A stretch of DNA of 64,000 nt, taken from an uncultured Pseudobdellovibrionaceae bacterium. GTDB taxonomy: Bacteria > Bdellovibrionota > FAC87 > UBA2466. Of this stretch, positions 41,870 to 60,304 are shown piece by piece. The first letter of the stretch is position 1, and the number at the start of each line of letters is the position of its first letter. The stretch covers positions 13,478 through 77,477 of the forward strand of contig CAYNEF010000013.1 of assembly GCA_964396165.1 (NCBI GenBank), read 5' to 3'. A model generated the notes under the pieces. It made no database searches. It was not told the DNA's origin and saw nothing but the letters and a program-made list of their open reading frames with translations. Made by a program: the position numbers and the translations under genes.

Positions 41870-42832
41870 ATGCCTAAAATTACTCTTTCCTTTTTTCGTT
41901 CGTATTTATCCATCCTTTTATTTACGGCGTTTGAAGTCGCTGCACTTCGTTTGATCTTGCACTCCGTATTAAGACTAGAAATCGGCTGGGTAGGGATGAC
42001 CGACTTTGACATTGCTATTCCGATGATGGTTTCTCTTTTTATTTCGTTACTTGTTTTAAGTCAGACAGGTGAATTGAAGTTAAAAATTCAAAAGCCCATT
42101 TTGTATTGCAATATAGCTTTAATCGCTTCGTTCTTAATCCTGAGCTCGATGCTGCCGCAAATAGGTGTATCGCCTTTGATCCACGGTATTTGGGTATTTT
42201 TATTACTTGCTGTTTTTCTTTCTTCTTTGTGTGTGTGGGTTGCCCCTTCTTTTTATGTATCTAATTCAAATAACTGGGTAGTTTTTCCGGCGTTGATGCT
42301 AGCTATTTCTGTTGTCGTTTATCAACATTACTATGAAGTAATGTGGCCTTCTTTGATTCCCCTAACGGGCAAGGCAAGTTGTGCTGTTTTAAAACCGATT
42401 TTGGGTGGGGCTTTAAAATGCAGCATGAATAGTTCCATGGACATGCTTTTAAGAGAAAAATATTTTTGGGCAGATATCGGAGCAGGGTGTTCAGGCATGG
42501 AAGGCCAGTTATTTTTCATTATTTCGTTTCTTATCCTGTTAAGTCTTTATGGAAAAAAAGTCGGCATCATTGAGTGGAGTATCTTTTTGATTTCAGGCCC
42601 GATCGTGATTTTTTGGGCAAATATATTAAGAATTGTCGTATTTTTTCTCATCGGGGCAATCTCGGTAAGGACGTCTTACTTTAATTTCGGTCGTACTACG
42701 ATGTTATTTCTCTTCCATTCTCATGCTGGTTGGGTTCTCTATTCCTCAGCAATCCTATGCCTGCAGTCCTTAGTTCTTGTGCCTTCAGTAAAGAAAAAAA
42801 TCTCGCAAGCTGCCGTTGCACACGTGAAGTAA
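41870..42832 (+). CDS. Exosortase/archaeosortase-family polytopic membrane protein (putative transpeptidase)
   Basis: About 8 transmembrane helices. Candidate active-site motif GAGCSGMEG, N-x-x-R motif WANILRIV and a downstream FHSHAGW, matching the Cys/Arg/His pattern of exosortases. No PEP-CTERM partner is seen nearby. Confidence 0.55.
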   Translation: MPKITLSFFRSYLSILLFTAFEVAALRLILHSVLRLEIGWVGMTDFDIAIPMMVSLFISLLVLSQTGELKLKIQKPILYCNIALIASFLILSSMLPQIGVSPLIHGIWVFLLLAVFLSSLCVWVAPSFYVSNSNNWVVFPALMLAISVVVYQHYYEVMWPSLIPLTGKASCAVLKPILGGALKCSMNSSMDMLLREKYFWADIGAGCSGMEGQLFFIISFLILLSLYGKKVGIIEWSIFLISGPIVIFWANILRIVVFFLIGAISVRTSYFNFGRTTMLFLFHSHAGWVLYSSAILCLQSLVLVPSVKKKISQAAVAHVK

Positions 42833-42958
42833 TAATCACTACTTAGCGATTATGAAAAAATCTCCTTAGTCCACTTAAGCCCCCGTCCTGACTGCTAAAA
42901 AGCCGTGCTCTCTCAATTATGAAAATAATGCAGCTGGAAAAGCTTCTGTAATACTCCG

Positions 42959-42964
42959 TATAAT
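42959..42964 (+). promoter_or_regulatory. Candidate -10 box (TATAAT) upstream of the giant adhesin gene
   Basis: TATAAT lies 64 nt upstream of the ATG at 43028. The ribosome-binding site GAGG sits 8 nt before the start. Confidence 0.3.
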
Positions 42965-43027
42965 CAGTATGTACAAAAGAATAGATTTTATTAGTTGTTC
43001 ATTTTGCAGAACGTATGTGAGGTATAT

Positions 43028-46000
43028 ATGAGTAATAAACCACGATTAATTTCCTATTTTGGGTTTTTAACACTGCTGCTACTAAGTACCCAGGTACAAG
43101 CAGAAGTAGGCAGTACTTTCACTGCAACTATTCCAGTAACCAAGCCCGGTGATTCTGCCGGCAGTTTCAACCTCGCAATTGGTGGTTTAAGCGGTACTGC
43201 TTCAGGTACATTCACCGATACCAAAACCGGTCATTATAAGTATGTTGTGGGAAGCGGTTCTGGATATTGGTCTACAAAACGTGCAAGTGAAATTACCAAC
43301 TTTGGTTCTTACATCAGATACGGGCTGCAATTAAATTCTTTGCAAATTATGCAAAGCTTTAATAGCAAAGTACAAAATACAATTTTAAATAGTTATAACA
43401 ATGCTACTGAAGATGCCTATGTTTGCCCTACAGGTGCAGGTGGTTCGAGCGCTGACTACAACTGGATTTTATTAAGACCCCGCACGCCAGAAGAAGCGAC
43501 ACTCAAAAAAGTTTATAACGATGCCACCAAAAATAGAGTGGGTGGACGTGTGCATTATACGCAAAGTGGAAATGCTGTAACAATGACGGGCGAAGGCTCA
43601 TTTGATTTAGTGAATTTGACTGAAGCTGGTACTGCTTATGCGGTAACTCCACAAGGTTCTGAAACTTGTGATACGACCAATGCCTCCAGACAAAAAACTA
43701 CTAGCACTGGTGCCGATTATTTAGATCCATTCGGTTATTTCTGGTTCGGAAAAAGAGACGGTTCAAACAATCCTCAAGCAGCAATGTATATCAGTACGAA
43801 ATCAAGCCCGATGGTAGCACTTTTTGCGCCTACTCAAGTACTCGACAGTACTGTCATGTCTACTTTGTCCAATTACCGTTTTGCTACACTTTATACTTCG
43901 TGGAACTCCAAAACGTCCATCACTACTAAGACAGCGGTTATCACTCCTGACACTGCTGGAACTACTTTTACAGTAGAAAATGTTTCTGATCTGGAAGCAC
44001 CTAAGACATCCAGAACTGCGTTAGGTACGATTACTTGTACCAGTTTGAACAGTCCTAGCAATGGATTTTGCTCTGGCACACTCACATTAAATGGCGTTTC
44101 TGGTACAGGCAAAAGCGTTTGCATGATTGCAAATATTGGGACTCAAAATACGATTTCTTGCATTGCTCAAAATCCGGCTGACAATCGCTATGCGATCACT
44201 TTAGTGGCAACTTATTCCAAAAAAGCAAATTTAATTATCACTCCTACTTATAGTGAAGGTACCGGTTGCAAAACTTTCAGCGTTGAAAATCCTTCCAATA
44301 GATATATTTCAAGTCTTGGTATTCCAGCAAATCCTGCGCAACAACTTTCTGGTAACTGGAGTCTTGGTGCAAGCTCATTCTCAGGAAGCGGTGGCTATTG
44401 CGGATCTTCTATTGCTCCTTGGGATACGTGTAATATTCAGGTGTGTAACAATGACACTACAGCGACTTCCGAAGTGGCAACTGTCAGAATTGCGTATGAT
44501 GACGGTGCAACGACAGTAAATTCTACTACGGCTGTGGCTAAAGTGCCTACCACTGTTGCAAGCGTGTTTTCAAATCCGGATGGGACATCCTATACTTGCC
44601 ACGACACTTCCACTGTTCATACTTTTACAAATAAGTTTCAATATAATGTTGAGTATGCAAATGCAGCAGTAGAGGATTTGATCGCTTCTGTAGATGCAGA
44701 TTCCTTACTGAGTATTTCTGTCAATTCTCCTGGTTGGTCCGTAAGCAGTAACAAAGCAACCATCGATTGCGGCAATGCTAATCTACATGACGGTGATCAA
44801 GCAACGTTTTATGCAAAATATTTCCCTGATGGTAATTTAACAGACAATAACGGATCTGTTACTTTCACATTACACTTCGACGTAGACAGTGATGGGGTTA
44901 ATGATTCAGCGGATAACTGCCCGCTTATTTCTAACGTCAGCCAAACCGATACAGACGGTGACCTTGTCGGGGATGATTGCGATAATTGCCCAGCCGTCAG
45001 CAACGTTGCTCAAACGGATACTGACAGCGACGGCGTAGGCGATGCATGCGACAATTGTCCTGCTGTTTCCAACGGCGATCAAGCTGAAACAGTGGCGGAT
45101 GGCGACGGATTAGGCGATGCGTGCGACAACTGCCCCACAGTATCGAACGTAGGACAAGAAAATAACCTAGGCGGAACTGCTGCAGGCGATGTGTGCGAAG
45201 ATCAAGATTTGGATAACGTAGTGGACGGATCGGATAATTGTCCGCTTGTTGCAAATGGTACACAAGATAATAACAAAGGTGGAACAGCTGCCGGTGATGC
45301 GTGCGAAGATCAAGACGGTGACGGTGTAATGGATGCTACAGATAACTGCGTGACTACGTACAATCCAGAGCAGGGAGATTCCGACAGTGATGGAATCGGT
45401 AATGCATGCGATGATACGGATGGTAACAGCACATGTACTCTATTAACTTCGATGACCGGTGTAAATTATACGAATACGCAAAGTGGTTGGTCGTTTTATG
45501 TTCACTCTGTGACCGGCTGCCACGCCCAAGTATATGCTACACAACTGGGCACTAGTACAGCTGCCTATGTGTATGATAATAAACTTTATCTTTCCAGCAC
45601 AGGGCTGTTGCACAACCCGTACCTTGCATTCGGTCAAGGCTACTATCTCGATTTAAGTTCGGGATTGGGAACAATTACATCAAATTACAACGGCTATACG
45701 TACTATGCCCCTGACACAGACGGTGATGGTTATTCTGATTTAGTCGACAATTGTATCTCCGCTTACAATCCGGATCAGGCAGATTCTGATGCGGATGGTA
45801 TTGGGAATGCTTGCGATACTTCAGATACAAACTGCAATGCAATTACAACTGCCTATGAAGGTGTGCAATGGTACGCTCCGAATTTAGGTTGGAGTTTCTA
45901 CTTGAGTTCGATAGCTGCGAACAATTGCAGTTTTACCCTCTATTCACCACAAGTCGGTTATGCTAACGCGTATTATTATAATGGTGCTCTCTATGCAAAA

Positions 46001-47239
46001 TCTTCAAGCGTTATGTATGGCTCTTACTTAACTATCGGCGGTGGCCAAACCATGCCGTTAAGTAATAGCAATCTCTCAGCTTATGCTGGAGGCGGTTATT
46101 ATTATAACGTAACTACCGACTGTGCCGGAGTAATGGGTGGAACAGCAGTGGTGGATAACTGCAATGTCTGTTCTGGTGGAACCACTGGAGTAACAGCTTG
46201 TACACAAGACTGTGCTGGTACTTGGGGTGGCGCTGCAGTTATTGGTGGTTGCGATAATATGTGCGGAAGTACAGCGGTAACAGATTGTAATGGTACTTGT
46301 GGTGGTACAGCTACTGTAGACAGCTGTGGTGTCTGCGGTGGTAATAACAATGATTGTGCTGCAGATATGTTTGGAACATATTGCTCTGCAGCTTCGAAAG
46401 GATGCAGCAATGTTTGCGGCAGCAACTCTACTGTAGACAACTGTGGTGTCTGCAATGGCAATAACAATGATTGTAGCCCAGACTGGACGGGTACGTATTG
46501 CTCAGCGGCTGCGAAAGATTGCAGCGGCCGTTGCGGCGGTGCTGCAATATTGGATTGTAACGGTTCTTGCGGAGGCGCAGCTGTTATAGACAACTGTGGT
46601 GTCTGCGGTGGAAATAACAGCAACTGTAGCCAGGATGCCAATGGAACCTATTGCGCTACAACTTCCTTAGGTTGCAACAACATATGTAATAGTGGACTGA
46701 CAGTCGATGCATGCGGCGTCTGCGGAGGAAATGATTGTAGCGCAGATGCAAACGGTACCTATTGCTCCGCTGCTGCCAAAGGTTGCAACAACGTCTGTAA
46801 TAGCGGTGTAGTAGCAGATTGTGCTGGCGTCTGTGGTGGTACAGCAACTTTAAGTGGTTGTGACAACGCTTGCGGAAGTACAGCAGTATTAGATTGCGCT
46901 GGCGTCTGCGGTGGTACGGCAGTTGTAGGCGGTTGCGATAACACTTGCGGAAGTACAGCAGTAGTCGATTGCGCTGGCGTCTGTGGTGGTACGGCAGTTG
47001 TAGGCGGTTGCGATAACACTTGCGGAAGTACAGCAGTAGTCGATTGCGCTGGTGTCTGCGGTGGTTCAGCCGTGTTAAGTGGTTGCGACAATGCATGTAA
47101 CAGTACAGCAGTAGTAGACTGCGCTGGCGTCTGCGGTGGTTCAGCCGTGTTAAGTGGATGTGACAATACCTGTAACAGCACTGCAGTAGTGGATGCCTGC
47201 GGAGTTTGCGGTGGTGACGGTTCAAGTTGTGCTCCGTAA
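43028..47239 (+). CDS. Giant secreted Cys-rich adhesin-like protein with thrombospondin type-3 repeats and C-terminal CxxCGG tandem repeats
   Basis: The ORF track starts at 42995; the Met at 43028 has an ribosome-binding site. Signal peptide. Central D-x-D-x-DG-x-x-D-x-x-DNCP repeats. Two homologous W/Y-rich modules of about 95 aa. About 40 copies of C-x-G-x-CGG-x-A... units. Ends ...CGVCGGDGSSCAP. Confidence 0.8.
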   Translation: MSNKPRLISYFGFLTLLLLSTQVQAEVGSTFTATIPVTKPGDSAGSFNLAIGGLSGTASGTFTDTKTGHYKYVVGSGSGYWSTKRASEITNFGSYIRYGLQLNSLQIMQSFNSKVQNTILNSYNNATEDAYVCPTGAGGSSADYNWILLRPRTPEEATLKKVYNDATKNRVGGRVHYTQSGNAVTMTGEGSFDLVNLTEAGTAYAVTPQGSETCDTTNASRQKTTSTGADYLDPFGYFWFGKRDGSNNPQAAMYISTKSSPMVALFAPTQVLDSTVMSTLSNYRFATLYTSWNSKTSITTKTAVITPDTAGTTFTVENVSDLEAPKTSRTALGTITCTSLNSPSNGFCSGTLTLNGVSGTGKSVCMIANIGTQNTISCIAQNPADNRYAITLVATYSKKANLIITPTYSEGTGCKTFSVENPSNRYISSLGIPANPAQQLSGNWSLGASSFSGSGGYCGSSIAPWDTCNIQVCNNDTTATSEVATVRIAYDDGATTVNSTTAVAKVPTTVASVFSNPDGTSYTCHDTSTVHTFTNKFQYNVEYANAAVEDLIASVDADSLLSISVNSPGWSVSSNKATIDCGNANLHDGDQATFYAKYFPDGNLTDNNGSVTFTLHFDVDSDGVNDSADNCPLISNVSQTDTDGDLVGDDCDNCPAVSNVAQTDTDSDGVGDACDNCPAVSNGDQAETVADGDGLGDACDNCPTVSNVGQENNLGGTAAGDVCEDQDLDNVVDGSDNCPLVANGTQDNNKGGTAAGDACEDQDGDGVMDATDNCVTTYNPEQGDSDSDGIGNACDDTDGNSTCTLLTSMTGVNYTNTQSGWSFYVHSVTGCHAQVYATQLGTSTAAYVYDNKLYLSSTGLLHNPYLAFGQGYYLDLSSGLGTITSNYNGYTYYAPDTDGDGYSDLVDNCISAYNPDQADSDADGIGNACDTSDTNCNAITTAYEGVQWYAPNLGWSFYLSSIAANNCSFTLYSPQVGYANAYYYNGALYAKSSSVMYGSYLTIGGGQTMPLSNSNLSAYAGGGYYYNVTTDCAGVMGGTAVVDNCNVCSGGTTGVTACTQDCAGTWGGAAVIGGCDNMCGSTAVTDCNGTCGGTATVDSCGVCGGNNNDCAADMFGTYCSAASKGCSNVCGSNSTVDNCGVCNGNNNDCSPDWTGTYCSAAAKDCSGRCGGAAILDCNGSCGGAAVIDNCGVCGGNNSNCSQDANGTYCATTSLGCNNICNSGLTVDACGVCGGNDCSADANGTYCSAAAKGCNNVCNSGVVADCAGVCGGTATLSGCDNACGSTAVLDCAGVCGGTAVVGGCDNTCGSTAVVDCAGVCGGTAVVGGCDNTCGSTAVVDCAGVCGGSAVLSGCDNACNSTAVVDCAGVCGGSAVLSGCDNTCNSTAVVDACGVCGGDGSSCAP
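44878..45833 (+). repeat. Thrombospondin type-3-like calcium-binding repeats (two clusters)
   Basis: DSDGVNDSADNCP, DTDGDLVGDDCDNCP, DTDSDGVGDACDNCP and similar, then DTDGDGYSDLVDNC...DSDADGIGNACD. Confidence 0.7.
46118..47230 (+). repeat. Cys-rich CxxCGG tandem repeat region; last 5 units are near-identical 75-nt DNA repeats (46817-47192)
   Basis: Protein period of 25 aa: DCAGVCGGTAVVGGCDNTCGSTAVV. DNA units at 46892, 46967, 47042 and 47117 are 75 nt apart. Units 1 and 2 differ by 1 nt. Confidence 0.85.
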
Positions 47240-47291
47240 GACATTACGCTCGCATCTTACGCACGGATTGTCTTTTTGATATAATTTACGC

Positions 47292-47933
47292 ATGAAAAAA
47301 ATAAATCCGTTTCTTTTCGCTGTGCCTTTTCTTGTTTTATTCTTGCTCCAATCTGCTTGTACTAAAGAAGAGAGTAAAACAGAAAGTAGTGAAGAGAAAA
47401 AAAATCCACAGGCAATAGCGCAAACTACGGAAACCCCAAAAGCCTTGGCAACTAGCCAGCCCACACCTTCTGCAGCTCCTGCAAAATCCGATGTCTTATT
47501 CAAACTTCCAGCTGAAATGAAGCCTACAGCGGAACAAGAAGTTTTGATTCAGAAATTGAAAAAGCAATATGCTGCACAGATTGAAGTAGAACAAGATAAG
47601 CTGATAAATACGTATACGGAAGAGCAAAACAAGCAGCGCATCGAAGCCGCAAAGCAAGCTGGCGCTGAAGGAAAAAAAGGAAAGGATTTTGCCGACGCAG
47701 TAAAAAAAGCTGTCAAATTATCTGCAGAACAAGAGCAAAAAATAGATCAAGCGCTAAAGGAAATCACGAAGTTTAGCTCTCTTATCCAGACAGAACTTGC
47801 AAAGACGTACACACCTGAGCAAAAACAAGAGCTATTAGAGTTCTCAAAAAAAGCTGCGGGAAGCGTTTCCCCTTCAGTAAAAACTGAAGAAACCAGTCAG
47901 AAAAAAGCGCAAAAGATAAAAACAAAATACTAA
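47292..47933 (+). CDS. K/E/Q-rich coiled-coil lipoprotein (possible periplasmic chaperone-like)
   Basis: Lipobox LLQSAC. Low-complexity helical sequence. Confidence 0.45.
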   Translation: MKKINPFLFAVPFLVLFLLQSACTKEESKTESSEEKKNPQAIAQTTETPKALATSQPTPSAAPAKSDVLFKLPAEMKPTAEQEVLIQKLKKQYAAQIEVEQDKLINTYTEEQNKQRIEAAKQAGAEGKKGKDFADAVKKAVKLSAEQEQKIDQALKEITKFSSLIQTELAKTYTPEQKQELLEFSKKAAGSVSPSVKTEETSQKKAQKIKTKY

Positions 47934-48035
47934 AATACGACCTAGCCACCTCGCGTAATAGACCTTACTCATGCTCTTTGCTATAATTTATAAGTCTTAA
48001 ACTACTCCACTTTTTAAAAATAACCTGAGGCAGCA

Positions 48036-48836
48036 ATGAACAATAAATTTATACAATCCACCCTATTTTTCGCATTACTTCTAAGCGTAACCAATTGCAC
48101 CACAAAGAATCAACTAAAAGCAATGCTTGTAGAAAATCCGGACATTTTAGTGGAAGCATTCCAGAAAAATCCCGATAAATTTTCACCCATATTCAATCAG
48201 GCTAGAGCACAAGCACAAGCGAGAAATGTGGAAGCTGAGAATGCGAAACGAGAAGAGGATTTTAAAAATCCCAAGCAGCCTTTAGTAGATACAAAACGGC
48301 CTATCAAAGGAAAAGTGAATGCGCCAGTTACGATCGTGGCCTATTCTGATTTTCAATGCCCTTTCTGCTCGCGAGTCGAAGACACGATGGCAGAACTCAT
48401 GAAAAAAAACGAAGGCAAAATCCGATACGTGTTTAAAAACTTCCCACTTCCTTTTCATCAATATGCCATGCCCGCAGCCCTTCGGTACGAAGCTATTTCC
48501 ATGCAGAGTAAAGAACTTGCTTTGAAATACCATGATGAACTTTTTAAAAATCAAAATCTGATGAATACGGAAAAAGAAGCGTATTTGGATAAAGCAGCGG
48601 CAAAGATTGGCGCCAATGTCGCAAAAATGAAAAAAGATATCGCAACAGATGCCGTTAAAAAGAGAGTCGAAGCAGATATCGAAGAAGGAAAAAAATTCGG
48701 CGTGACAGGAACCCCCGCCTTTCTTATCAACGGCGTCTTTATCAACGGAGCACGAGGAGTGCAGGACTTCGATGCGATTGTTCAAAGATGGCTTAAGAAC
48801 CCACCCACACGGGAAGTCAGTTCAGATAAGAAATGA
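48036..48836 (+). CDS. DsbA-family thiol:disulfide oxidoreductase
   Basis: Signal peptide. CPFC active site. Paralog of 36356 and 48833. Confidence 0.8.
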   Translation: MNNKFIQSTLFFALLLSVTNCTTKNQLKAMLVENPDILVEAFQKNPDKFSPIFNQARAQAQARNVEAENAKREEDFKNPKQPLVDTKRPIKGKVNAPVTIVAYSDFQCPFCSRVEDTMAELMKKNEGKIRYVFKNFPLPFHQYAMPAALRYEAISMQSKELALKYHDELFKNQNLMNTEKEAYLDKAAAKIGANVAKMKKDIATDAVKKRVEADIEEGKKFGVTGTPAFLINGVFINGARGVQDFDAIVQRWLKNPPTREVSSDKK

Positions 48837-49522
48837 AATATTTTTTAATTTCTATCCTGCTGGTAGGTCTTGTACATTGCACGCCCAAAGAGACCGTACC
48901 TGATTCTAAAACGGCGCAAGAAGAGCGAGCGCGCAAAGCCAAAGAAGAGTTTGAAAAGAAACTCGATGCAGATTTTGCAACCCCACTGCAACCTGATCTG
49001 TCAGAGAAACGCCCCTTTCGAGGTGCTAAGAACGCAAAAGTTGTTCTGGTTGTCTATTCTGATTTCCAATGCCCATTTTGCAGTAGAGGATTTCAGACAT
49101 TGGAGCAGGTGCGTGAAAAATACCCGAACGATGTGAAGATTATTTTTAAACACATGCCGCTTGAGATGCACTCCGCTGCTGAAACAGGGGCAAGGTATTT
49201 TGAAGCAATCGCACTTCAAGATGAAGAAAAAGCATGGAAGTTTCACGACACGCTTTTTTTAAACCAGGATCAGTTGGGGGAAGAAGCGGAAAAATACATG
49301 AAATCCACTGCAAAAAGTCTGAAAGTGGATATGAAAAAATTAGCAAAAGACATCAAGTCCGACGCTGTCACGAAACGCCTGAAAGCCGACTCAGAAGAAA
49401 CTAGAAAGTTTCGTTTTACTGGAGCTCCCTCTTTTATCGTGGGAGGAGTAAGAGTAGTTGGAGCTAAGGGTTTTCCGCTATTTGAAAAAATCATTGATAG
49501 GCATCTGAAGCCTAAGTCTTAG
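48833..49522 (+). CDS. DsbA-family thiol:disulfide oxidoreductase
   Basis: Signal peptide. CPFC. Its start overlaps the stop of the preceding DsbA gene. Confidence 0.8.
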   Translation: MKYFLISILLVGLVHCTPKETVPDSKTAQEERARKAKEEFEKKLDADFATPLQPDLSEKRPFRGAKNAKVVLVVYSDFQCPFCSRGFQTLEQVREKYPNDVKIIFKHMPLEMHSAAETGARYFEAIALQDEEKAWKFHDTLFLNQDQLGEEAEKYMKSTAKSLKVDMKKLAKDIKSDAVTKRLKADSEETRKFRFTGAPSFIVGGVRVVGAKGFPLFEKIIDRHLKPKS

Positions 49523-49527
49523 AAAAG

Positions 49528-49893
49528 TTACTTCTTCGCCAAGTTTCGTTGATTTTTCCAAATCATCACTGATGGCACAATCACAGAAATAAATAACGCT
49601 AAAATAATCCAAACAGACTTTGACGTATTTTCTCCTATTTCCGAAACCCCAGCAGAGCAGGGAAGAGTGGCTATGTTACGGCACTCGCCATTCGTAAAAA
49701 TACAAGGAGATTGTAGGTCACACGTTTCCTGGTCAGGTGCATCACAGCAATTTGAACATCCGTCTGGAGTGCCGGGGCAAAACTTGCATTGGCCCGTACA
49801 GTCGGTACTTGTAGCACAAGTACCTCCGCAATCTGCGGCGTAGAGATTCAAACTATAAAAAGATAGTAGAAAAGCTAGCAATGCAATTTTCAT
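49528..49893 (-). CDS. Small Cys-rich secreted protein with C-terminal transmembrane anchor and basic tail
   Basis: Signal peptide MKIALLAFLLSFYSLNLYA. 16 Cys in about 70 aa (CGGTCATSTDCTGQCKFCPG...). C-terminus ...VWIILALFISVIVPSVMIW-KNQRNLAKK, which is a transmembrane helix plus a basic cluster. Confidence 0.5.
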   Translation of the reverse strand: MKIALLAFLLSFYSLNLYAADCGGTCATSTDCTGQCKFCPGTPDGCSNCCDAPDQETCDLQSPCIFTNGECRNIATLPCSAGVSEIGENTSKSVWIILALFISVIVPSVMIWKNQRNLAKK

Positions 49894-50620: not shown

Positions 50621-51397
50621 TTAAGAAGCTTTTTTGCTCGTCTGATTGGGATTTTCAATTTCCGCCGCATCCGCAAAATAATTGCTTGGCTTTCTTTTTT
50701 CCATCAGCTCAAGCCATTTCATTGTCTGATCATAGCCTTCGTTCTCAATATCATGAACCCGTTCCAATTTTTGTTGTAGCGGAGTCCAGACACAGATAGA
50801 AAAGAATAAACCGTAAAAAGTGGTAAGAAGCGCCAAACTCATGTTGGATCCTATTTTAGACGGATCTTCTAATGTGGAAAGCAGCCTTACCATCCCAAGA
50901 ATAGTTCCTAACATGCCGAGAGAGGGTGCAAGTCTGAGTCCCATGGAGGTGACTGAGAGACACTGCTGCGTTCTATTGGCAAATCTATCTCTTTCGATTT
51001 CCAGTAATTCCCGGATGTCAGAAGCCGGCATTTTTACAGACAGGCGTTCAATGGATTTTTTCACATAAGAGGATATTTTGCCCGTTTTTACTCTTTCAAA
51101 TACGGCAATTCCTTCGGCGTAAAAATCTTTGCCTAATTTATGTAAAAGCATGGCTTCTTTTTCATGCAAGTGGATTCTGGTTTTGGGCCCGTCTCCAAAA
51201 ACAAGACTTAAAACGCGCGCAAGCACTTCGCCTTCGAAACAAACCATGGCAAGCGCTATTGGGCCAAGACCCGTAAGCACAATGGCGGGCCAATGGAGCA
51301 TGCGGTAAGCCCCTTCCAAGGAAGATTGGCTTTCGAATTCATACACAACAAACAGGCAGGTAAACAATAATGCTACCCCAGATAGTCGAGAAATCAT
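50621..51397 (-). CDS. motA: MotA/TolQ/ExbB-family proton channel
   Basis: 4 transmembrane helices. C-terminal signature LTTFYGLFFSICVWTPL. Confidence 0.8.
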   Translation of the reverse strand: MISRLSGVALLFTCLFVVYEFESQSSLEGAYRMLHWPAIVLTGLGPIALAMVCFEGEVLARVLSLVFGDGPKTRIHLHEKEAMLLHKLGKDFYAEGIAVFERVKTGKISSYVKKSIERLSVKMPASDIRELLEIERDRFANRTQQCLSVTSMGLRLAPSLGMLGTILGMVRLLSTLEDPSKIGSNMSLALLTTFYGLFFSICVWTPLQQKLERVHDIENEGYDQTMKWLELMEKRKPSNYFADAAEIENPNQTSKKAS

Positions 51398-53082
51398 GCA
51401 ATCGCCTCACGGATTTTTTTGGTCAAAATAATTTTTGCTGCATTTGTTTTTTCTTTGTCAGATTCTTTATACCCTTGCAATTGATCGAGAAGGTGCTCTC
51501 TTCTTTTAGGAGATAATGCATCCAAAAGCACATCTGCTACATCCTTACTGCAAGTGGAAAGAGCCAGACACAATTCATCGTTATCTACATTCACAAGTAC
51601 TTTTTCAAGGATGGAGTCTGGTAAGCTTGCTGCGTCTTCCAGGGCAAATCGGTATTTTTTTAAAGAGGGATATAGGTCAGGTTTTTCTCTTTCAATGATT
51701 CTTAAAATTGAGTCCTGATCGTCTGCTTCACTTAAGATGTTTCCCCAGAAATCTGCTTCGTCTTTACTTGCGCCGAAAATATTTTTAGGAAGTTGGTTGG
51801 AAATCTTTCTTACCTGTTGTTCGATTTCGACAAGCTCTGAAAACGGAATCTGGTTTAGTTTGGAAGAGTAGGCTAGTACTTCTGATTTTTGCTTGTCAGT
51901 AAGTGTCTTTAGTATTTTTGCAGATTGTTCAGGCCGCATGAATCTTAATAGCACGCAAACAGTGCGCGGAGTTTGTTGCTGAGCAATCGCATTTATTTGT
52001 TCATCGGTTAAATAATGCATGAATCCGAAAAACTGTCCGCTTTTCCAGTCTTGTGCTCTTACGTACTCATCAAAGTTTTTTTCATGTCTTTGCAGTTTTT
52101 GATCGAGATCGGGAGGCTCGATGAGTTTAAGGGGACGGGTGACACGTACACCGTCTAGTAAACTGTCAAAAGCAGGTCCTTGAAGACCCGCATAGAGTTC
52201 CATACGAAGATCTGTATTTAAAACATCGTGGTAATTTTTAAAAGCTTCTGATCTGGAGAGAAATTTCGCAAGCAGGCGCTGGCGTAATTCAGCAGCAGAT
52301 TCTTCCGTCGATTCTTTCGACTGTGATTTTTGAAAAGACTGGCTCTTTGCTACTTCATGCGGGTGCATAAAGGGAAGTAAGTTTCTTAAAGAGGTGTCTG
52401 CATTCCCATTTTTTTGAGATTCCCGCTGAATAAGAAGCATCATGGCGATTGCACCCAAGACTGCTGCCCCAATCCATTTTACATACTGCCAAACTTGTTC
52501 CATGAGTGTGGGGGGAGTTTTTTCTTTTAACTTCTCAAGCTCAACCTGCATTTTTTCCATTAAAACTTCTGCTTCTGATTTTGCCGGTTTTCTTTCAGGC
52601 TTTAGCATAGGAAGTTCGGAATAGCTGACAAAGGCCTTATTCGAATAGCTTCCGCGTAAGTATTCCTGAACTGCGTTTTTTGCCTGTGTGATAGTGGCAG
52701 GCTTTAGCGCGTCATCGAATTTTACATACACTCGAAGTGCCGCTAGTTCGCTTGAGTCTACGGTTCTATAGACTTGTCTAGACTGCGTTGGCTTGTCTTT
52801 GGATCTTTCTTCTTTTATTTCGGGAACAAAGCCAGGCATCGGTGGAACAGTAGTTTCTTCTTCTCTTTCCACTTGAGAAATAATCGTTTCGCCTTCTACC
52901 AGTTTGCGTTCAGATTTAACCTGCACTTCGGCATTTACCTGCACCAGAAATTCTTCTTTGGGAATCAGTCGGGATAAAGCATTTTCCAGATCCCCTTGTA
53001 CTTTACTTTCGACAAGATAAGCGTCATTCATCGCAGAGGCGATAAGCGGAAATAAAAATAAAATGTAGCCGAAATGCTTCAT
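51394..53082 (-). CDS. Bitopic hypothetical protein with a periplasmic N-domain and a cytoplasmic helical (FliG/MgtE-N-like) C-domain; partner of MotAB
   Basis: Signal peptide. One transmembrane helix near aa 200. C-terminal helical repeats. ATGA overlaps with both neighbours. Confidence 0.4.
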   Translation of the reverse strand: MKHFGYILFLFPLIASAMNDAYLVESKVQGDLENALSRLIPKEEFLVQVNAEVQVKSERKLVEGETIISQVEREEETTVPPMPGFVPEIKEERSKDKPTQSRQVYRTVDSSELAALRVYVKFDDALKPATITQAKNAVQEYLRGSYSNKAFVSYSELPMLKPERKPAKSEAEVLMEKMQVELEKLKEKTPPTLMEQVWQYVKWIGAAVLGAIAMMLLIQRESQKNGNADTSLRNLLPFMHPHEVAKSQSFQKSQSKESTEESAAELRQRLLAKFLSRSEAFKNYHDVLNTDLRMELYAGLQGPAFDSLLDGVRVTRPLKLIEPPDLDQKLQRHEKNFDEYVRAQDWKSGQFFGFMHYLTDEQINAIAQQQTPRTVCVLLRFMRPEQSAKILKTLTDKQKSEVLAYSSKLNQIPFSELVEIEQQVRKISNQLPKNIFGASKDEADFWGNILSEADDQDSILRIIEREKPDLYPSLKKYRFALEDAASLPDSILEKVLVNVDNDELCLALSTCSKDVADVLLDALSPKRREHLLDQLQGYKESDKEKTNAAKIILTKKIREAIA

Positions 53083-58065: not shown

Positions 58066-59157
58066 TCAACCGCGCGGTTTTAATTGAGATTCTACTTTTT
58101 GTTTCAACTTTTCGTACGGTTGATTGCCTTGAATCAATGTGCCGTTGACGATTAGAGAGGGAAGGGCAAGTATTCCCATTTTGACTGCCTGTTGTTTGCT
58201 TTTTTCAATTTGCTCCGAATATTGCTTTGAATCCAAACAGGAATTGAATTTTTGTGTGTCGATGCCGATTGTTTTTGCATAGTCTTTTAAATTTTTGTCT
58301 TCCAGTTTGTGCGGGTTTTGAAAAAGCAATTCCCGCATTTCCCAAAACTTGCCTTGATCATTTGCACAGCGAGCGGCAATGGCAGAGGGGTATGCGCGAG
58401 GGTTAGAAGGAGTCGGATTTTCTGCAAAGACAATCTTAACTTTGTCAGGACCAAATTCTTTTTTCAAACGCTCCATGTTTTCAGTGTTTCGCGCGCAATT
58501 GGCGCAAGGAAAATCAGAGTATTCGACCACTGTCACAGGAGCATTGTTGTTTCCCCACTTGGCATAACCATCGAGAGTCAGGGTAACAATATTTTCTGAA
58601 GGTTCGGGGATGAGTAATTTGATATTTGCTTCGGAAGCCAGTTTTTCTAAATAAGCTTCTCTTTTTTCTGCTGTAGCACGGTATTTTAAAAAGTTTTTAA
58701 TATCTTCTCTTTTGATTTTACGATCTTTCGGGTTCAGTCCCTTGGAAAGCATGTAGTTTGTGACATCGTCATTAGTAGGTTCGCTAACTTCTCCGCCTAG
58801 ATTTTTTGCGATTAAAGAAGGGATACTCATCTTCGATTTTTTTGCTTCTTCTTCGAGAAGCTTGCTTTGAATATGATCCAAAATGGCTTTGCGTTTCATT
58901 TCATATAAGGAAGATTCAATTTCGTAGACGCGGTTTTTTATAGAAAAGTAGGCGTCTTGCGCTGTGATACCGGTGCCATTGTACACAGCAACTACATCTT
59001 CTTGTTTAGTGATTTGAGTAGCTCGATTTTTATTTGCAAAGAAAAAACCCATGCCGAACCCGACTGCAATCCCACCCAAAGTTAGTAAGACAAACAGGGA
59101 AGAGTTGCCTTTGGAATTACACAAAATATTTTTTTGATTTGATTGGATTATTTTCAT
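58066..59157 (-). CDS. Membrane-anchored DsbA-like thioredoxin-domain protein with a long N-terminal extension
   Basis: Transmembrane helix. Region of about 150 aa. Thioredoxin domain with CANC active site. Confidence 0.65.
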   Translation of the reverse strand: MKIIQSNQKNILCNSKGNSSLFVLLTLGGIAVGFGMGFFFANKNRATQITKQEDVVAVYNGTGITAQDAYFSIKNRVYEIESSLYEMKRKAILDHIQSKLLEEEAKKSKMSIPSLIAKNLGGEVSEPTNDDVTNYMLSKGLNPKDRKIKREDIKNFLKYRATAEKREAYLEKLASEANIKLLIPEPSENIVTLTLDGYAKWGNNNAPVTVVEYSDFPCANCARNTENMERLKKEFGPDKVKIVFAENPTPSNPRAYPSAIAARCANDQGKFWEMRELLFQNPHKLEDKNLKDYAKTIGIDTQKFNSCLDSKQYSEQIEKSKQQAVKMGILALPSLIVNGTLIQGNQPYEKLKQKVESQLKPRG

Positions 59158-59190
59158 GAAGAGTATTCTATCAGAAGTAAGGTAGGCATC

Positions 59191-59227
59191 AAAAAAAAAG
59201 AGGCCAGCCCCGAAGGACTGGCCTCTC
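59191..59227 (-). terminator. Rho-independent terminator of the 59240..60304 gene
   Basis: Hairpin gaggccag-cccgaag-gactggcctc. On the minus strand it is followed by a T9 run, which is the A9 at 59191-59199 on the plus strand. Confidence 0.7.
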
Positions 59228-59239
59228 TGCGTTAATCTT

Positions 59240-60304
59240 TTATTTTTTTGCTACGCGATCAATTTTCTCTTTGAATTTTTCAAAGGGTTGAGCGCCTTGT
59301 AAAAGAGCTCCGTTGATCACGAAAGAAGGTGTGGCTTGAATGCCCAGGCTTTCAGCTTCTTTGCGACTCTTATTGACGAGTTCTTCCGGTTTTTTCTTAT
59401 CGAAGCACTCGTTAAACTTTGTCGCATCCAGTGCAAGTTTTGCTGCATAAGATTTTAGGTCTGCATCTTCCAGTTTTGCCTGGTTTTCAAACAACATGTC
59501 ATGCATTTCCCAGAATTTTCCTTGTTCGTCTGCACAATGTGCGGCGAGAGAGGCAGGGAATGCTCTTGGATGATTTGGCAATGGCATGTCTCTGAAAACG
59601 ACGCGTACTTTGTCTGGGCCGTATTCTTTTTTGATTTTCTGAATGGTCGGTACTGCTCTTGCGCAGAAAGGACATTGAAAATCAGAGATTTCTACAATGG
59701 TAACAGGAGCGGATTTATTACCCCAAGTTGGGTAACCTTCTGTCGCAATCACCATGCTGGGGGACTGTGGCTCAGGAATCATCAATTTTAATTTTGCAGA
59801 TTCTCTAAGTTTGGCCACATATGCCTGGCGTTTTTCAAACTTTTGTCTGTATTTCAGGTATTCCCGTACGTCGTCTTTTTTTACTCGTGGATCTTTTAGA
59901 GAAAGACCTTTTGAGGAAAGAAATTCGTCGATTTCCTTATCGGTAACATCAGCAACTGCTCCGCCCTGGGATTCTTTATCTAGGAGTTGTTCCATGGAGA
60001 GGTTTTGTTTTTTTGCTTCGTTTTCGATAATTTTTTGATCAACGTATTCGTTTATCGCCTGTTCTTTTGTGCGGTAAACTTCTTCTTCGAGATCAAAAAG
60101 TCTTGTTTTGATTGCAGCAAAAGCTTCAGAAGCTTTTACGGATTTGCCGGCGAGTTCCGCAACAACGGGATCGCCACCGGACATTCCAACGCCGCCTTTT
60201 ATGGCCATGGTTCCGATGATTCCCACTGCAAGTCCCACGACTACGCAAATTGCGTAGGCCATCGTGTTATTTGGTCCACCCTGTGAGTTATTTGCCTCTG
60301 TCAT
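59240..60304 (-). CDS. Membrane-anchored DsbA-like thioredoxin-domain protein (paralog of 58066..59157)
   Basis: Transmembrane helix. CPFC active site. Same architecture as the neighbouring paralog. Confidence 0.65.
   Translation of the reverse strand: MTEANNSQGGPNNTMAYAICVVVGLAVGIIGTMAIKGGVGMSGGDPVVAELAGKSVKASEAFAAIKTRLFDLEEEVYRTKEQAINEYVDQKIIENEAKKQNLSMEQLLDKESQGGAVADVTDKEIDEFLSSKGLSLKDPRVKKDDVREYLKYRQKFEKRQAYVAKLRESAKLKLMIPEPQSPSMVIATEGYPTWGNKSAPVTIVEISDFQCPFCARAVPTIQKIKKEYGPDKVRVVFRDMPLPNHPRAFPASLAAHCADEQGKFWEMHDMLFENQAKLEDADLKSYAAKLALDATKFNECFDKKKPEELVNKSRKEAESLGIQATPSFVINGALLQGAQPFEKFKEKIDRVAKK

What the first reader, a model, noticed from the sequence alone, without database searches (positions are those of the whole stretch)
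46118..47239. About 40 CxxCGG cysteine-knot-like repeats ending in an ADAMTS-like CGVCGGDGSSC motif, with 75-nt near-identical DNA units
The C-terminal third of the giant protein is built from units of 20-25 aa, each with 4 Cys, of the form C-A/N-G-V/T-CGG-x-A-x-x-D-x-C-D/G-N-x-C-x-S. The final motif, CGVCGGDGSSC, closely resembles the CxVCGGDGSxC motif found at the start of the animal ADAMTS Cys-rich/spacer region. The last five units (46817-47192) are 75-nt tandem DNA repeats. Units 1 and 2 differ by a single nucleotide and units 3 and 4 are also near-identical. This indicates very recent duplication and a substrate for slipped-strand or recombinational copy-number variation, as in phase-variable or antigenically variable adhesins. 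Three long antisense ORFs across this region are artefacts of the repeat composition.
Basis: seen in the sequence. Interest (0 to 1): 0.6.

Follow-up and report, generated by a model that had tools for sequence, protein, structure and literature searches.

The report
Bacterial disulfide-ladder rod of ADAMTS-like modules
The last quarter of a large secreted bacterial protein is a string of tiny cysteine-stapled turns related to the rod-shaped connector of animal ADAMTS proteases; it most likely forms a stiff disulfide-laddered stalk, and it belongs to a widespread family of bacterial repeats for which I found no curated model and no paper.

Summary
The cysteine-rich repeat region is real, but the counts in the finding are wrong. 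Window 46118-47236 encodes 373 aa with 58 Cys. These form 19 "rungs" of 12-13 aa (C-x3-C), 6 "caps" (C-x2-C-x4-9-C) and 4 extra Cys. There are only 4 strict CxxCGG motifs, not about 40.

The 75-nt tandem array (46817-47191, 5 units) is confirmed. Units 2 and 3 differ by 1 nt, units 4 and 5 by 9 nt, and the other pairs by 12-21 nt.

The ADAMTS resemblance holds and covers a whole module. A profile of the 31-aa module matches only ADAMTS5 and ADAMTS13 in the PDB, on the C_B subdomain. That subdomain is a rod of turns with no secondary structure, held by two disulfides. The region is below Pfam threshold, so it is not an ADAMTS Cys-rich domain.

Two tests on 120 homologs (rung/cap covariation, p=1e-89; Cys parity 368/378) support a continuous ladder of disulfides between neighbouring units. 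The CGVCGGDGSSC motif closes this ladder.

The family has about 1,750 representatives, mostly from uncultured marine bacteria, with varied partner domains.

The gene lies in an 8-kb island absent from a close relative. The island also carries two DsbA-like oxidoreductases and an exosortase-family gene.

Phase variation is not supported, because the units are in frame. Length variation is plausible. The antisense ORFs are compositional artefacts.

The parts
43028..47239 (+). Gene for the 1403-aa secreted mosaic protein. It has a signal peptide, an orphan head of about 600 aa, TSP type-3 repeats with two unassigned inserts, and the C-terminal Cys ladder.
   Evidence: ORF and translation. An identical 1403-aa protein is in the representative library (P0242). 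TSP_3 hit at E=1.5e-28.
43028..43102 (+). Predicted signal peptide (MSNKPRLISYFGFLTLLLLSTQVQA|EV).
   Evidence: Read from the translation. This is an inference; no predictor was run.
43103..44857 (+). Orphan N-terminal 'head' region.
   Evidence: No Pfam family. Only one homolog among 5.8 billion proteins (P0121, 46% identity). P0121 carries TIG and fn3 domains where this protein has TSP3 repeats and Cys repeats.
44858..46117 (+). Thrombospondin type-3 (calcium-binding type) repeats, interrupted by two copies of an unassigned Tyr/Gly-rich domain of about 105 aa.
   Evidence: Pfam TSP_3 at 1e-30 with 5 stretches. Partial NCBIfam MtsC match at 153.9 bits, below the 350-bit cut-off.
46118..47236 (+). 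Cys-ladder array: 373 aa with 58 Cys, made of 19 rungs (C1-x3-C1'; two lack C1'), 6 caps (C2-x2-C3-x4-9-C4) and 4 insert Cys (C5).
   Evidence: Homologs. AF2 model has mean pLDDT 66.7, with blocks above 85.
46286..46816 (+). Middle part of the array, containing the four caps that are each followed by a GTYC insert (CGVCGGNNNDC..GTYC..). These lie mainly in units of about 39 aa (117 nt) with 6 Cys, with extra rungs between some of them.
   Evidence: TRF period 117 over 46311-46525 at 79% matches. Repeat families D3 and D4.
46817..47191 (+). Five tandem 75-nt (25-aa) double-rung units.
46892..47041 (+). The most recent duplication: units 2 and 3, which differ by one synonymous nucleotide.
   Evidence: A short-read contig of the same organism starts at 47018, inside unit 3.
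47192..47236 (+). Terminal cap DACGVCGGDGSSCAP, the ADAMTS C_B-like motif that closes the ladder.
   Evidence: ADAMTS_CR_3 profile positions 83/91-115, 16.2-16.9 bits. PDB profile hits only to ADAMTS5 and ADAMTS13.
46102..46641 (-). Antisense ORF (179 aa), a compositional artefact.
   Evidence: Codon-shuffle control.
46656..47225 (-). Antisense ORF (189 aa), a compositional artefact.
   Evidence: A similar antisense ORF lies over the array of the unrelated locus L005.
46759..47244 (-). Antisense ORF (161 aa), a compositional artefact.
41870..42832 (+). Exosortase/archaeosortase-family membrane protein, the first gene of the island.
   Evidence: TIGR04178 at 27.5 bits, above the 23-bit cut-off, E=2.9e-6. 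Sequence.
47292..47933 (+). Lipoprotein of unknown function, rich in Lys, Glu and Gln.
   Evidence: Lipobox LLQSAC in the translation. No family found.
48036..48836 (+). DsbA-like thioredoxin-fold lipoprotein with a CPFC active site.
   Evidence: Pfam Thioredoxin_4 at 1.3e-27 and DSBA at 6.7e-19. Sequence.
48833..49522 (+). Second DsbA-like lipoprotein (CPFC), 39% identical to the first.
49528..49893 (-). Small secreted protein of 121 aa with 12 Cys. Its C-terminal tail has a transmembrane helix followed by basic residues. It is a candidate substrate of the exosortase-family enzyme.
   Evidence: Translation. No NCBIfam match. The substrate role is an inference.

Best explanation
The C-terminal 373 aa form an extracellular, disulfide-stapled rod built from mini-modules related to the C_B subdomain of animal ADAMTS proteins.

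Proposed structure (inferred)
- Each 12-13-aa 'rung' (D-C1-x-G-x-C1'-G-G-x-A-x-x) is a turn with no regular secondary structure.
- C1 of one rung bonds to C1' of the next rung, 16-17 residues away.
- A cap (C2-G-V-C3-G-G-D-x-x-x-C4) ends a run: its C3 takes the last open C1, and C2 bonds C4.
- The final CGVCGGDGSSC is therefore the closing piece of the ladder, not an isolated motif.
- With this pairing all 58 Cys fall into 29 disulfides.

Proposed function (inferred)
- The array is a stiff, protease-resistant stalk or spacer, very roughly 35 nm long if it scales like C_B. It extends or spaces the functional parts of a secreted or surface protein.
- The two DsbA-like lipoproteins of the same island would oxidise it in the periplasm.
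- In-frame duplication and loss of 75-nt double rungs changes the length of the rod.

What is shown and what is inferred
- Shown: the repeat grammar, the specific similarity to ADAMTS C_B, the covariation and parity of Cys, the variety of partner domains, and the island context.
- Inferred: the exact disulfide map, the rod geometry, the spacer role and the role of the DsbA genes.
For: 1. Similarity to ADAMTS C_B.
- A profile of 34 modules (A2) searched against all PDB sequences matches only ADAMTS5 (E=1.3e-4) and ADAMTS13 (E=0.18-0.34), across the whole module.
- The single sequence also matches ADAMTS5 at E=0.002.
- The top four Foldseek hits of the AF2 model are ADAMTS13 chains (29-36 columns, 44-45% identity). 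RMSD is 1.0-1.1 A for three of them and 4.2 A for 6qig. E-values are 0.8-2.4.
- C_B is described as having no secondary structure, being a series of turns held by a pair of disulfides, and forming a rod about 25 A long (PMC4885070).
- The AF2 model likewise shows almost no helix or strand, only periodic isolated bridges.

2. Ladder pairing.
- In 120 homologs, C1' is Cys in 3 of 183 rungs that directly follow a cap Cys, and in 408 of 502 rungs that follow another rung (Fisher p=1e-89).
- The number of Cys between successive caps is odd in 368 of 378 distinct segments (p=5e-95). This is what closed local pairing requires if each 3-Cys cap borrows one Cys.
- In the model, C1' (11 of 17) and C3 (5 of 6) are bridge residues, while C1 (0 of 19) and C2 (0 of 6) never are. 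C1' and C3 therefore share a structural register.

3. Spacer role.
- The array occurs with many unrelated extracellular domains: fn3, Fib_succ_major, Peptidase_M43, Dockerin_1, CBM96, LamG, LRR, and T9SS tails.
- In 81 of 120 homologs it is N-proximal, often directly after a lipoprotein signal.
- The only homolog of the head domain carries TIG and fn3 domains in place of the TSP3 and Cys repeats.
- The conserved positions are Cys, Gly and Asp. The rest are small residues.

4. Oxidation.
- Two DsbA-like CPFC lipoproteins lie 0.8 kb downstream, in an island absent from a syntenic relative.
Against: - No coordinates were available, so no disulfide was actually seen. The map rests on spacing, covariation and my recollection of the ADAMTS13 pairing (C532-C548, C545-C555).
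- The AF2 model is only moderately confident: mean pLDDT 66.7, pTM 0.29, with 115 residues below 50.
- Structural and sequence matches to ADAMTS are short, with E-values near 1 for Foldseek and 1e-4 at best for the profile.
- Homologs are not independent samples, so the p-values are inflated.
- In this protein the array is at the extreme C-terminus with no anchor after it. This is a rare arrangement in the family (19 of 120) and fits a stalk less well than the N-proximal arrays do.
- DsbA adjacency is not conserved: it occurs in 1 of 79 other loci.
- A binding function of the 39-aa units, which have conserved GTYC and aromatic residues, is not excluded.
Confidence: 0.6

Rival explanations
1. 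The array is mainly a binding or adhesive module for a polysaccharide, matrix or prey-surface ligand, not a passive spacer. It would act as the distal, sticky end of the protein, in the way ADAMTS Cys-rich regions contribute to substrate and matrix recognition.
For: - In this protein the array is at the free C-terminus with no anchor.
- The 39-aa units carry conserved aromatic and polar inserts such as GTYC and DW/DMF.
- Relatives occur in adhesin-like giants secreted by the T9SS and alongside CBM, LamG and LRR domains.
Against: - The part of ADAMTS that is matched is the C_B connector, not the C_A subdomain where the cited VWF-binding pocket lies.
- Conserved positions are almost all Cys, Gly and Asp. 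The 25-aa units have no aromatic or basic residues.
- The array partners with many unrelated functional domains, which is typical of linkers.
Confidence: 0.2
2. One reading: the 75-nt repeats form a contingency locus, whose rapid copy-number change gives phase or antigenic variation of an adhesin.
For: - Units 2 and 3 differ by 1 nt.
- Other lineages hold their own 95-96% identical 75-nt arrays, with 4.2 and 3.2 copies in orthologous genes.
- Short-read assemblies break inside the array. Many related loci end at contig edges.
Against: - Units are 25 codons long, so no frameshift and no on/off switching is possible.
- Only one unit pair here is near-identical. The rest are 72-88% identical, and several pairs differ mainly by synonymous changes, for example 7 synonymous against 1 non-synonymous codon between units 4 and 5. 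This points to old, selectively maintained copies.
- No population data exist for this organism.
Confidence: 0.15
3. The cysteines are free thiols that bind metals, or act as a redox buffer in the manner of a metallothionein, rather than forming disulfides.
For: - Cys density is 16%, with CxxC and CxxxC spacing.
- Many relatives come from low-oxygen habitats, including Desulfobulbaceae, cable bacteria and Marinimicrobia.
Against: - Cys parity between caps is odd in 368 of 378 segments, and rung/cap covariation is strong. Metal ligation imposes no such pairing rule.
- The module resembles a solved structure that contains two disulfides.
- The protein has a signal peptide, and DsbA-like genes are adjacent.
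- His is absent from the array.
Confidence: 0.04
4. The array is a substrate for radical-SAM modification, belonging to the Pfam family PF27846 tSAM_targ_Cxxx_rpt that is precomputed on some relatives.
For: PF27846 is listed for several relatives.
Against: - Those hits are marked only 'weak' or 'faint'.
- The island contains no radical-SAM gene.
- These are large secreted multidomain proteins, not short precursor peptides.
Confidence: 0.01

Closest known systems
C_B subdomain of the ADAMTS / ADAMTS-like cysteine-rich domain (Pfam ADAMTS_CR_3 positions about 88-115; ADAMTS13 '[25 protein letters not shown]')
   Same: Both share the 4-Cys pattern C-x12-C-x2-C-x6-7-C, with a conserved Asp two residues before CGVCGGD(N/G)S. 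ADAMTS proteins are the only PDB sequence matches and the best Foldseek matches. In both there is no regular secondary structure. C_B is a rod-like connector held by two disulfides (PMC4885070).
   Different: ADAMTS has one copy, embedded between C_A and the spacer domain. Here 25 units are concatenated. Most are stripped-down 2-Cys rungs that must pair with their neighbours. There is no metalloprotease, disintegrin, TSR1, C_A or spacer domain. Scores are below the Pfam threshold.
Uncharacterised bacterial 'DCAGVCGG / CGVCGGDNSxC' repeat proteins of marine and sediment MAGs (Neomarinimicrobiota, Myxococcota, Bradymonadia, Chitinophagales, Desulfobulbaceae, Bdellovibrionales)
   Same: They use the same rungs and caps. 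The 25-aa double rung is up to 75% identical (L005). They follow the same cap-terminated grammar. There are 1,746 representatives at E<=1e-3.
   Different: The partner domains differ. Most relatives place the array near the N-terminus. Only here did I see it combined with this orphan head domain and with a DsbA/exosortase island. One relative (L050) also combines TSP3 repeats with the array.
Long tandem-repeat surface proteins with in-frame, near-identical repeats, such as the streptococcal alpha C / Rib type (from general knowledge)
   Same: The DNA units are in frame and highly similar, so they can be gained or lost by recombination to change protein length.
   Different: Those repeats are Ig-like domains of about 80 aa at close to 100% DNA identity, with documented size variation. 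Here the units are 25 aa, only one pair is near-identical, and no variation is documented for this organism.
Disulfide-braced short-repeat rods, for example the 12-residue Cys-containing coils of the beetle (Tenebrio) antifreeze beta-helix, or stacked EGF/TNFR-type cysteine-rich modules (from general knowledge)
   Same: Short periodic units of about 12 aa, each pinned by cystines into a stiff elongated body.
   Different: No sequence or fold relationship was detected. The Cys spacing differs (4 and 8-9 here). Those modules have intra-unit disulfides, whereas inter-unit bonds are inferred here.

Membership tests
ADAMTS cysteine-rich domain (Pfam PF19236 ADAMTS_CR_3) | Score at or above the Pfam gathering threshold (21 bits) | tested here: not met
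   There is no hit for the whole protein or the 373-aa region at E<=1. Isolated segments score 12.6-16.9 bits. Some relatives do pass, at 34-46 bits.
ADAMTS cysteine-rich domain (Pfam PF19236 ADAMTS_CR_3) | Match over the whole 115-position domain (C_A plus C_B) | tested here: not met
   Only profile positions 83/91-115 are matched. In relatives the match covers 88-115.
ADAMTS cysteine-rich domain (Pfam PF19236 ADAMTS_CR_3) | C_B signature: C-x12-C-x2-C-x6-7-C with D-x-CGVCGGD(N/G)S | tested here: met
   This signature is present at four of the six caps, each with its preceding rung; the first cap has a longer C3-C4 loop and the fifth a shorter one. The module profile matches ADAMTS5 at E=1.3e-4 and ADAMTS13 at E=0.18, and nothing else in the PDB.
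ADAMTS / ADAMTS-like protein | Domain context: TSR1 before the Cys-rich domain and a spacer after it, with or without a metalloprotease | tested here: not met
   Pfam finds only TSP_3 in the 1403-aa protein.
Phase-variable (contingency) repeat locus | A change in repeat number shifts the reading frame or alters a promoter, giving on/off switching | tested here: not met
   Units are 75 nt (25 codons) and lie inside the coding sequence.
Size-variable tandem-repeat surface protein | Copy number differs between strains | tested here: inconclusive
   No second strain of this organism was found. A short-read assembly breaks at 47018. In another lineage, orthologs carry 4.2 and 3.2 copies.
Exosortase substrate (PEP-CTERM-type protein) | C-terminal motif, transmembrane helix and basic cluster | tested here: not met
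   The protein ends ...CGVCGGDGSSCAP with no hydrophobic tail. The neighbouring 121-aa Cys-rich protein does have a TM-plus-basic tail.
MtsC (NCBIfam NF047638, MYXO-CTERM cohesion protein) | Score at or above 350 bits, plus a MYXO-CTERM tail | tested here: not met
   The score is 153.9 bits, confined to the TSP3 part. There is no C-terminal sorting tail.
tSAM_targ_Cxxx_rpt (Pfam PF27846) | Significant match to the model and an associated radical-SAM enzyme | tested here: inconclusive
   The model is not in the local Pfam copy. Precomputed hits on relatives are only weak or faint. There is no radical-SAM gene in the island.
Thrombospondin type-3 repeat protein (Pfam PF02412), for the region upstream of the finding | Score at or above 25 bits, with several repeats | tested here: met
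   98.6 bits with 6 stretches; 105.5 bits with 5 stretches.

The most novel reading that the evidence does not exclude
These arrays may be an undescribed protein architecture: a continuous cystine ladder in which every 12-13-aa turn is covalently stapled to the next and the run is closed by a CGVCGGD-type cap. This would give bacteria a length-tunable rigid rod. The single C_B connector of animal ADAMTS and ADAMTS-like proteins would then be a one-module relative of this ancient prokaryotic building block. In this genome the rod arrived as part of a mobile cassette that brings its own pair of DsbA-like oxidases and an exosortase-family enzyme with a small Cys-rich candidate substrate.
Probability: 0.35. 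Interest if true: 0.7.

Novelty: new variant of a known kind. Interest (0 to 1): 0.5.

Why it matters
If the ladder model is right, it defines a simple, evolvable structural element. It would be a stiff extracellular rod whose length changes in 25-aa steps through in-frame DNA duplication, used by many uncultured marine bacteria to space enzymes, binding domains and anchors.

It would also give the conserved C_B connector of ADAMTS and ADAMTS-like proteins a prokaryotic relative and an explanation for its sequence pattern.

In practice it would justify a dedicated family model. At present these regions are either unannotated or mislabelled as 'ADAMTS cysteine-rich domain' on the strength of a 25-residue match.

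The finding also flags a source of assembly breaks and collapses in metagenome-assembled genomes.

Tried and rejected
- Pfam and NCBIfam on the 373-aa region gave no hit.
- A scan of genome contigs with the N-terminal head found no relatives. Only one homolog exists in the big protein database.
- I tested whether DsbA adjacency is a conserved feature of the family. It is not: 1 of 79 loci has it. The exosortase-family gene and the lipoprotein have no relatives next to other arrays either, nor next to the head-domain homolog.
- I suspected a cohesin-like domain after the array in L005, L006 and P0016. Pfam gives no support, so I dropped the idea.
- I looked for a PEP-CTERM-like tail on the giant protein and on other ORFs. 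My first automated scan found none. The small ORF at 49528-49893 was spotted later by eye, and it matches no NCBIfam sorting-signal model.
- PF27846 turned out to be tSAM_targ_Cxxx_rpt, with only weak or faint hits. I rejected it as the identity of the repeat.
- Literature searches for CGVCGG, PF19236/PF27846, ADAMTS in bacteria, and 'Cxxx repeat' found nothing relevant. A search for the ADAMTS13 disulfide residue numbers also failed, so that pairing is quoted from memory.
- Rfam found nothing in the window.
- Model coordinates could not be read, so disulfide geometry could not be checked directly.
Full report
WHAT IS THERE

The finding lies in the last 27% of a 1403-aa ORF (ATG 43028 to stop 47239, + strand). 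The same 1403-aa protein is present in the public representative library (P0242).

The protein has four parts:
- a signal peptide;
- an N-terminal region of about 600 aa with no Pfam family, which has a single homolog among 5.8 billion proteins (P0121, 46% identity);
- thrombospondin type-3 repeats (Pfam TSP_3, E=1.5e-28), interrupted by two copies of an unassigned Tyr/Gly-rich domain;
- the cysteine-rich region at 46118-47236.

The cysteine-rich region holds 58 Cys in 373 aa. The 1030 aa before it hold 30.

CHECKING THE OBSERVATION

The repeats are real, but 'about 40 CxxCGG' is not. There are 4 strict CxxCGG motifs (all CGVCGG), 6 CxxC pairs and 18 CxxxC pairs.

Tandem Repeats Finder reports two periods:
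- 75 nt over 46810-47215, with 4.8-5.4 copies at 85-86% matches;
- 117 nt over 46311-46525.

In register there are five 75-nt (25-aa) units at 46817-47191, followed by DACGVCGGDGSSCAP and the stop codon. Their pairwise differences are:
- units 2 and 3 (46892-47041): one synonymous nucleotide;
- units 4 and 5: 9 nt;
- all other pairs: 12-21 nt.

Several pairs differ mainly at synonymous sites; units 4 and 5, for example, differ at 7 synonymous and 1 non-synonymous codon. So there is one very recent duplication among older copies whose peptide sequence has been maintained.

The three antisense ORFs are what the codon composition produces. When the codons of the region are shuffled, the longest antisense stop-free run averages 186 aa, and 49% of shuffles reach 179 aa or more. 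The same length of the N-terminal part gives 83 aa. An unrelated locus with the same repeats also has a long antisense ORF.

THE GRAMMAR OF THE REGION

All 58 Cys fall into four classes:
- 19 'rungs' of 12-13 aa, D-C1-x-G-x-C1'-G-G-x-A-x-x. Two of them have Met or Trp in place of C1'.
- 6 'caps', C2-x2-C3-x4-9-C4, typically CGVCGGNNxxC.
- 4 extra Cys (C5), in GTYC inserts after caps.

A rung followed by a cap gives the pattern C-x12-C-x2-C-x6-7-C.

RELATION TO ADAMTS

- The last 45 aa give a sub-threshold match to Pfam ADAMTS_CR_3 (16.9 bits against a threshold of 21), covering only profile positions 83-115 of 115.
- The whole region searched against all PDB sequences matches one protein, ADAMTS5, at E=0.002.
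- A profile of 34 rung-plus-cap modules from this protein and its homologs (A2) matches only ADAMTS5 (E=1.3e-4) and ADAMTS13 (E=0.18-0.34) in the whole PDB. The alignment runs across the full module, for example to [25 protein letters not shown] in ADAMTS13.
- An AlphaFold2 model of the region has mean pLDDT 66.7, with blocks above 85. It has almost no helix or strand, only periodic isolated bridges.
- The top four Foldseek hits of that model in the PDB are ADAMTS13 chains (29-36 columns, 44-45% identity). RMSD is 1.0-1.1 A for three of them and 4.2 A for 6qig. E-values are about 1 because the match is so short.
- The matched part of ADAMTS is the C_B subdomain. A structural review describes it as having no apparent secondary structure, as 'a series of turns stabilized by a pair of disulfide bonds', as rod-shaped with its ends about 25 A apart, and as highly conserved among ADAMTS and ADAMTS-like proteins (PMC4885070).

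The motif sits at the end of the ADAMTS Cys-rich domain, not at its start. This region is not a member of that domain family, because the threshold, the coverage and the domain context are all unmet.

HOW THE CYSTEINES PAIR (INFERENCE, WITH THREE TESTS)

As I recall the ADAMTS13 structure annotation, the C_B disulfides are C532-C548 and C545-C555, that is C1-C3 and C2-C4. I could not find a paper to cite for this.

A plain rung has only C1 and C1'. The next rung's C1' lies 16-17 residues after C1, which is the same distance as C1 to C3. I therefore propose a ladder:
- C1 of each rung bonds C1' of the next rung.
- A cap ends the run, with C1-C3 and C2-C4 bonds.
- C5 supplies a partner for the first C1' after a cap.

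This pairs all 58 Cys into 29 local disulfides.

Test 1, covariation. A rung that directly follows a cap has no open Cys before it, so it should lack C1'. In 120 homologs, C1' is Cys in 3 of 183 such rungs, where it is usually Trp, Phe, Tyr or Met. It is Cys in 408 of 502 rungs that follow another rung (Fisher p=1e-89).

Test 2, parity. The number of Cys between successive caps must be odd. It is odd in 368 of 378 distinct segments (p=5e-95). This also argues for disulfides over free or metal-binding thiols, which impose no parity rule.

Test 3, register. In the AF2 model, C1' (11 of 17) and C3 (5 of 6) are the bridge residues. C1 (0 of 19) and C2 (0 of 6) never are. C1' and C3 therefore occupy the same structural position.

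The alternative of intra-rung C1-C1' bonds would require bonds spanning up to about 150 residues along the chain to satisfy the caps.

Caveats:
- Homologs are related, so the p-values are inflated.
- No coordinates could be inspected.

THE FAMILY

- The repeat is common in uncultured bacteria: 832 hits among the scored candidates, and 1,746 representatives at E<=1e-3 out of 1.84 billion, with 467 at E<=1e-10.
- There are 153 matches in species-representative genomes. They come from Neomarinimicrobiota, Myxococcota, Bradymonadia, Chitinophagales, Desulfobulbaceae and cable bacteria, Bdellovibrionales and others.
- Partner domains vary widely: fn3, Fib_succ_major, Peptidase_M43, Dockerin_1, CBM96, LamG, LRR, beta-helix, and T9SS tails. 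One relative is a 2739-aa protein in a T9SS type-B locus.
- In 81 of 120 homologs the array is N-proximal, often directly after a lipoprotein signal.
- The sole homolog of this protein's head domain carries TIG and fn3 domains where this protein has TSP3 repeats and Cys repeats.
- Conserved positions are Cys, Gly and Asp. The remaining positions hold small residues.

All of this fits a structural stalk or spacer module. If the array scales like C_B, at about 1 A per residue, it would be roughly 35 nm long. That figure is an extrapolation.

Neither Pfam nor NCBIfam has a model covering the region. PF27846, which is precomputed on some relatives, is 'tSAM_targ_Cxxx_rpt', and it hits them only weakly or faintly. 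I found no paper on these arrays.

REPEAT DYNAMICS

Because the units are 25 codons long, gain or loss changes the length of the protein, not the reading frame. Phase variation is therefore not supported.

Length variation is plausible:
- Two related MAGs carry orthologous genes with 4.2 and 3.2 copies of their own 95-96% identical 75-nt unit.
- A short-read assembly of this same organism breaks at window 47018, inside unit 3, and another contig stops at 43022, just upstream of the gene's ATG start (43028).
- Many related loci end at contig edges.

The copy number in this assembly could therefore be an underestimate. I could not test that.

GENOMIC CONTEXT

The organism is an uncultured bacterium. 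Its CTP synthase is 76-81% identical to those of MAGs labelled Proteobacteria, Deltaproteobacteria or Bdellovibrionota.

A relative with 86% identical CTP synthase keeps the flanking gene order Prc - HPPD - MotB - MotA - FliG-like, at 59-84% protein identity. It has a single DUF4360 gene where this window has about 8 kb, 41870-49893. The island encodes, in order:
- an exosortase/archaeosortase-family protein (TIGR04178, 27.5 bits, cut-off 23);
- the giant protein;
- a lipoprotein of unknown function;
- two DsbA-like lipoproteins with CPFC active sites;
- a 121-aa secreted protein with 12 Cys and a C-terminal TM-plus-basic tail.

The giant protein has no sorting tail. The small protein is therefore the more likely exosortase substrate, though this is an inference.

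DsbA adjacency is not a family trait: it is seen in 1 of 79 other loci. Here, however, a 59-Cys mature protein travelling with two dedicated oxidoreductases makes functional sense.

VERDICT

The region is best read as a disulfide-laddered rod built from ADAMTS-C_B-like modules. It belongs to a large family for which I found no curated model and no paper. It has one very recent in-frame duplication.

It is not an ADAMTS domain, not a phase-variation switch, and not a metal-binding or radical-SAM-target repeat on present evidence.

The disulfide map, the rod geometry and the spacer role remain inferences. I put confidence in the overall explanation at about 0.6.

Noticed in passing
window 41870-49893: An island of about 8 kb is absent from a syntenic relative (L084), which has only a DUF4360 gene between HPPD and motB. 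The island holds an exosortase-family gene, the giant Cys-rich protein, a lipoprotein, two DsbA-like genes and a small Cys-rich protein.
   Followed up: partly
window 41870-42832 (+): A multi-pass membrane protein matches the exosortase/archaeosortase signature TIGR04178 above its cut-off. It has GCSG, an Arg and a His that could be the catalytic residues. No canonical PEP-CTERM protein is nearby.
   Followed up: partly
window 49528-49893 (-): A 121-aa protein has a signal peptide, 12 Cys and a C-terminal tail (..SEIGEN.., a TM helix, then KNQRNLAKK) that looks like a sorting signal. It matches no NCBIfam model and is a candidate exosortase substrate.
   Followed up: partly
window 48036-49522 and 58066-60304: The window holds four DsbA-like genes, in two pairs of paralogs (39% and 42% identity within pairs). 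The relative L084 has a single gene at the second site.
   Followed up: partly
window about 45410-45740 and 45860-46117 (protein aa about 795-905 and 945-1030): Two copies of an unassigned Tyr/Gly-rich domain of about 105 aa (..GWSFY..) are interleaved with the TSP type-3 repeats.
   Followed up: no
window 43028-44900: The N-terminal 624 aa have only one homolog among 5.8 billion proteins (P0121, 46% identity). That homolog is fused to TIG and fn3 domains. There is also a weak choice-of-anchor-D-like match at aa 440-493.
   Followed up: partly
L001 position 15 = window 47032: The short-read contig that starts inside unit 3 differs from the window by one synonymous base (ACG against ACA) near its tip. 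This could be a variant repeat copy or an end-of-contig error.
   Followed up: no
window 50621-53082 (-): A MotA/MotB pair lies next to a 562-aa protein with FliG-like C-terminal and middle domains. The arrangement is conserved in the relative L084.
   Followed up: no
L005 6298-6612 and L006 6157-6396: Orthologous lipoproteins of two low-GC MAGs carry 4.2 and 3.2 copies of a 95-96% identical 75-nt unit encoding DCAGVCGGDSVVGGCDN(A/V)CGSTAVE. L005 has a second array further downstream.
   Followed up: partly
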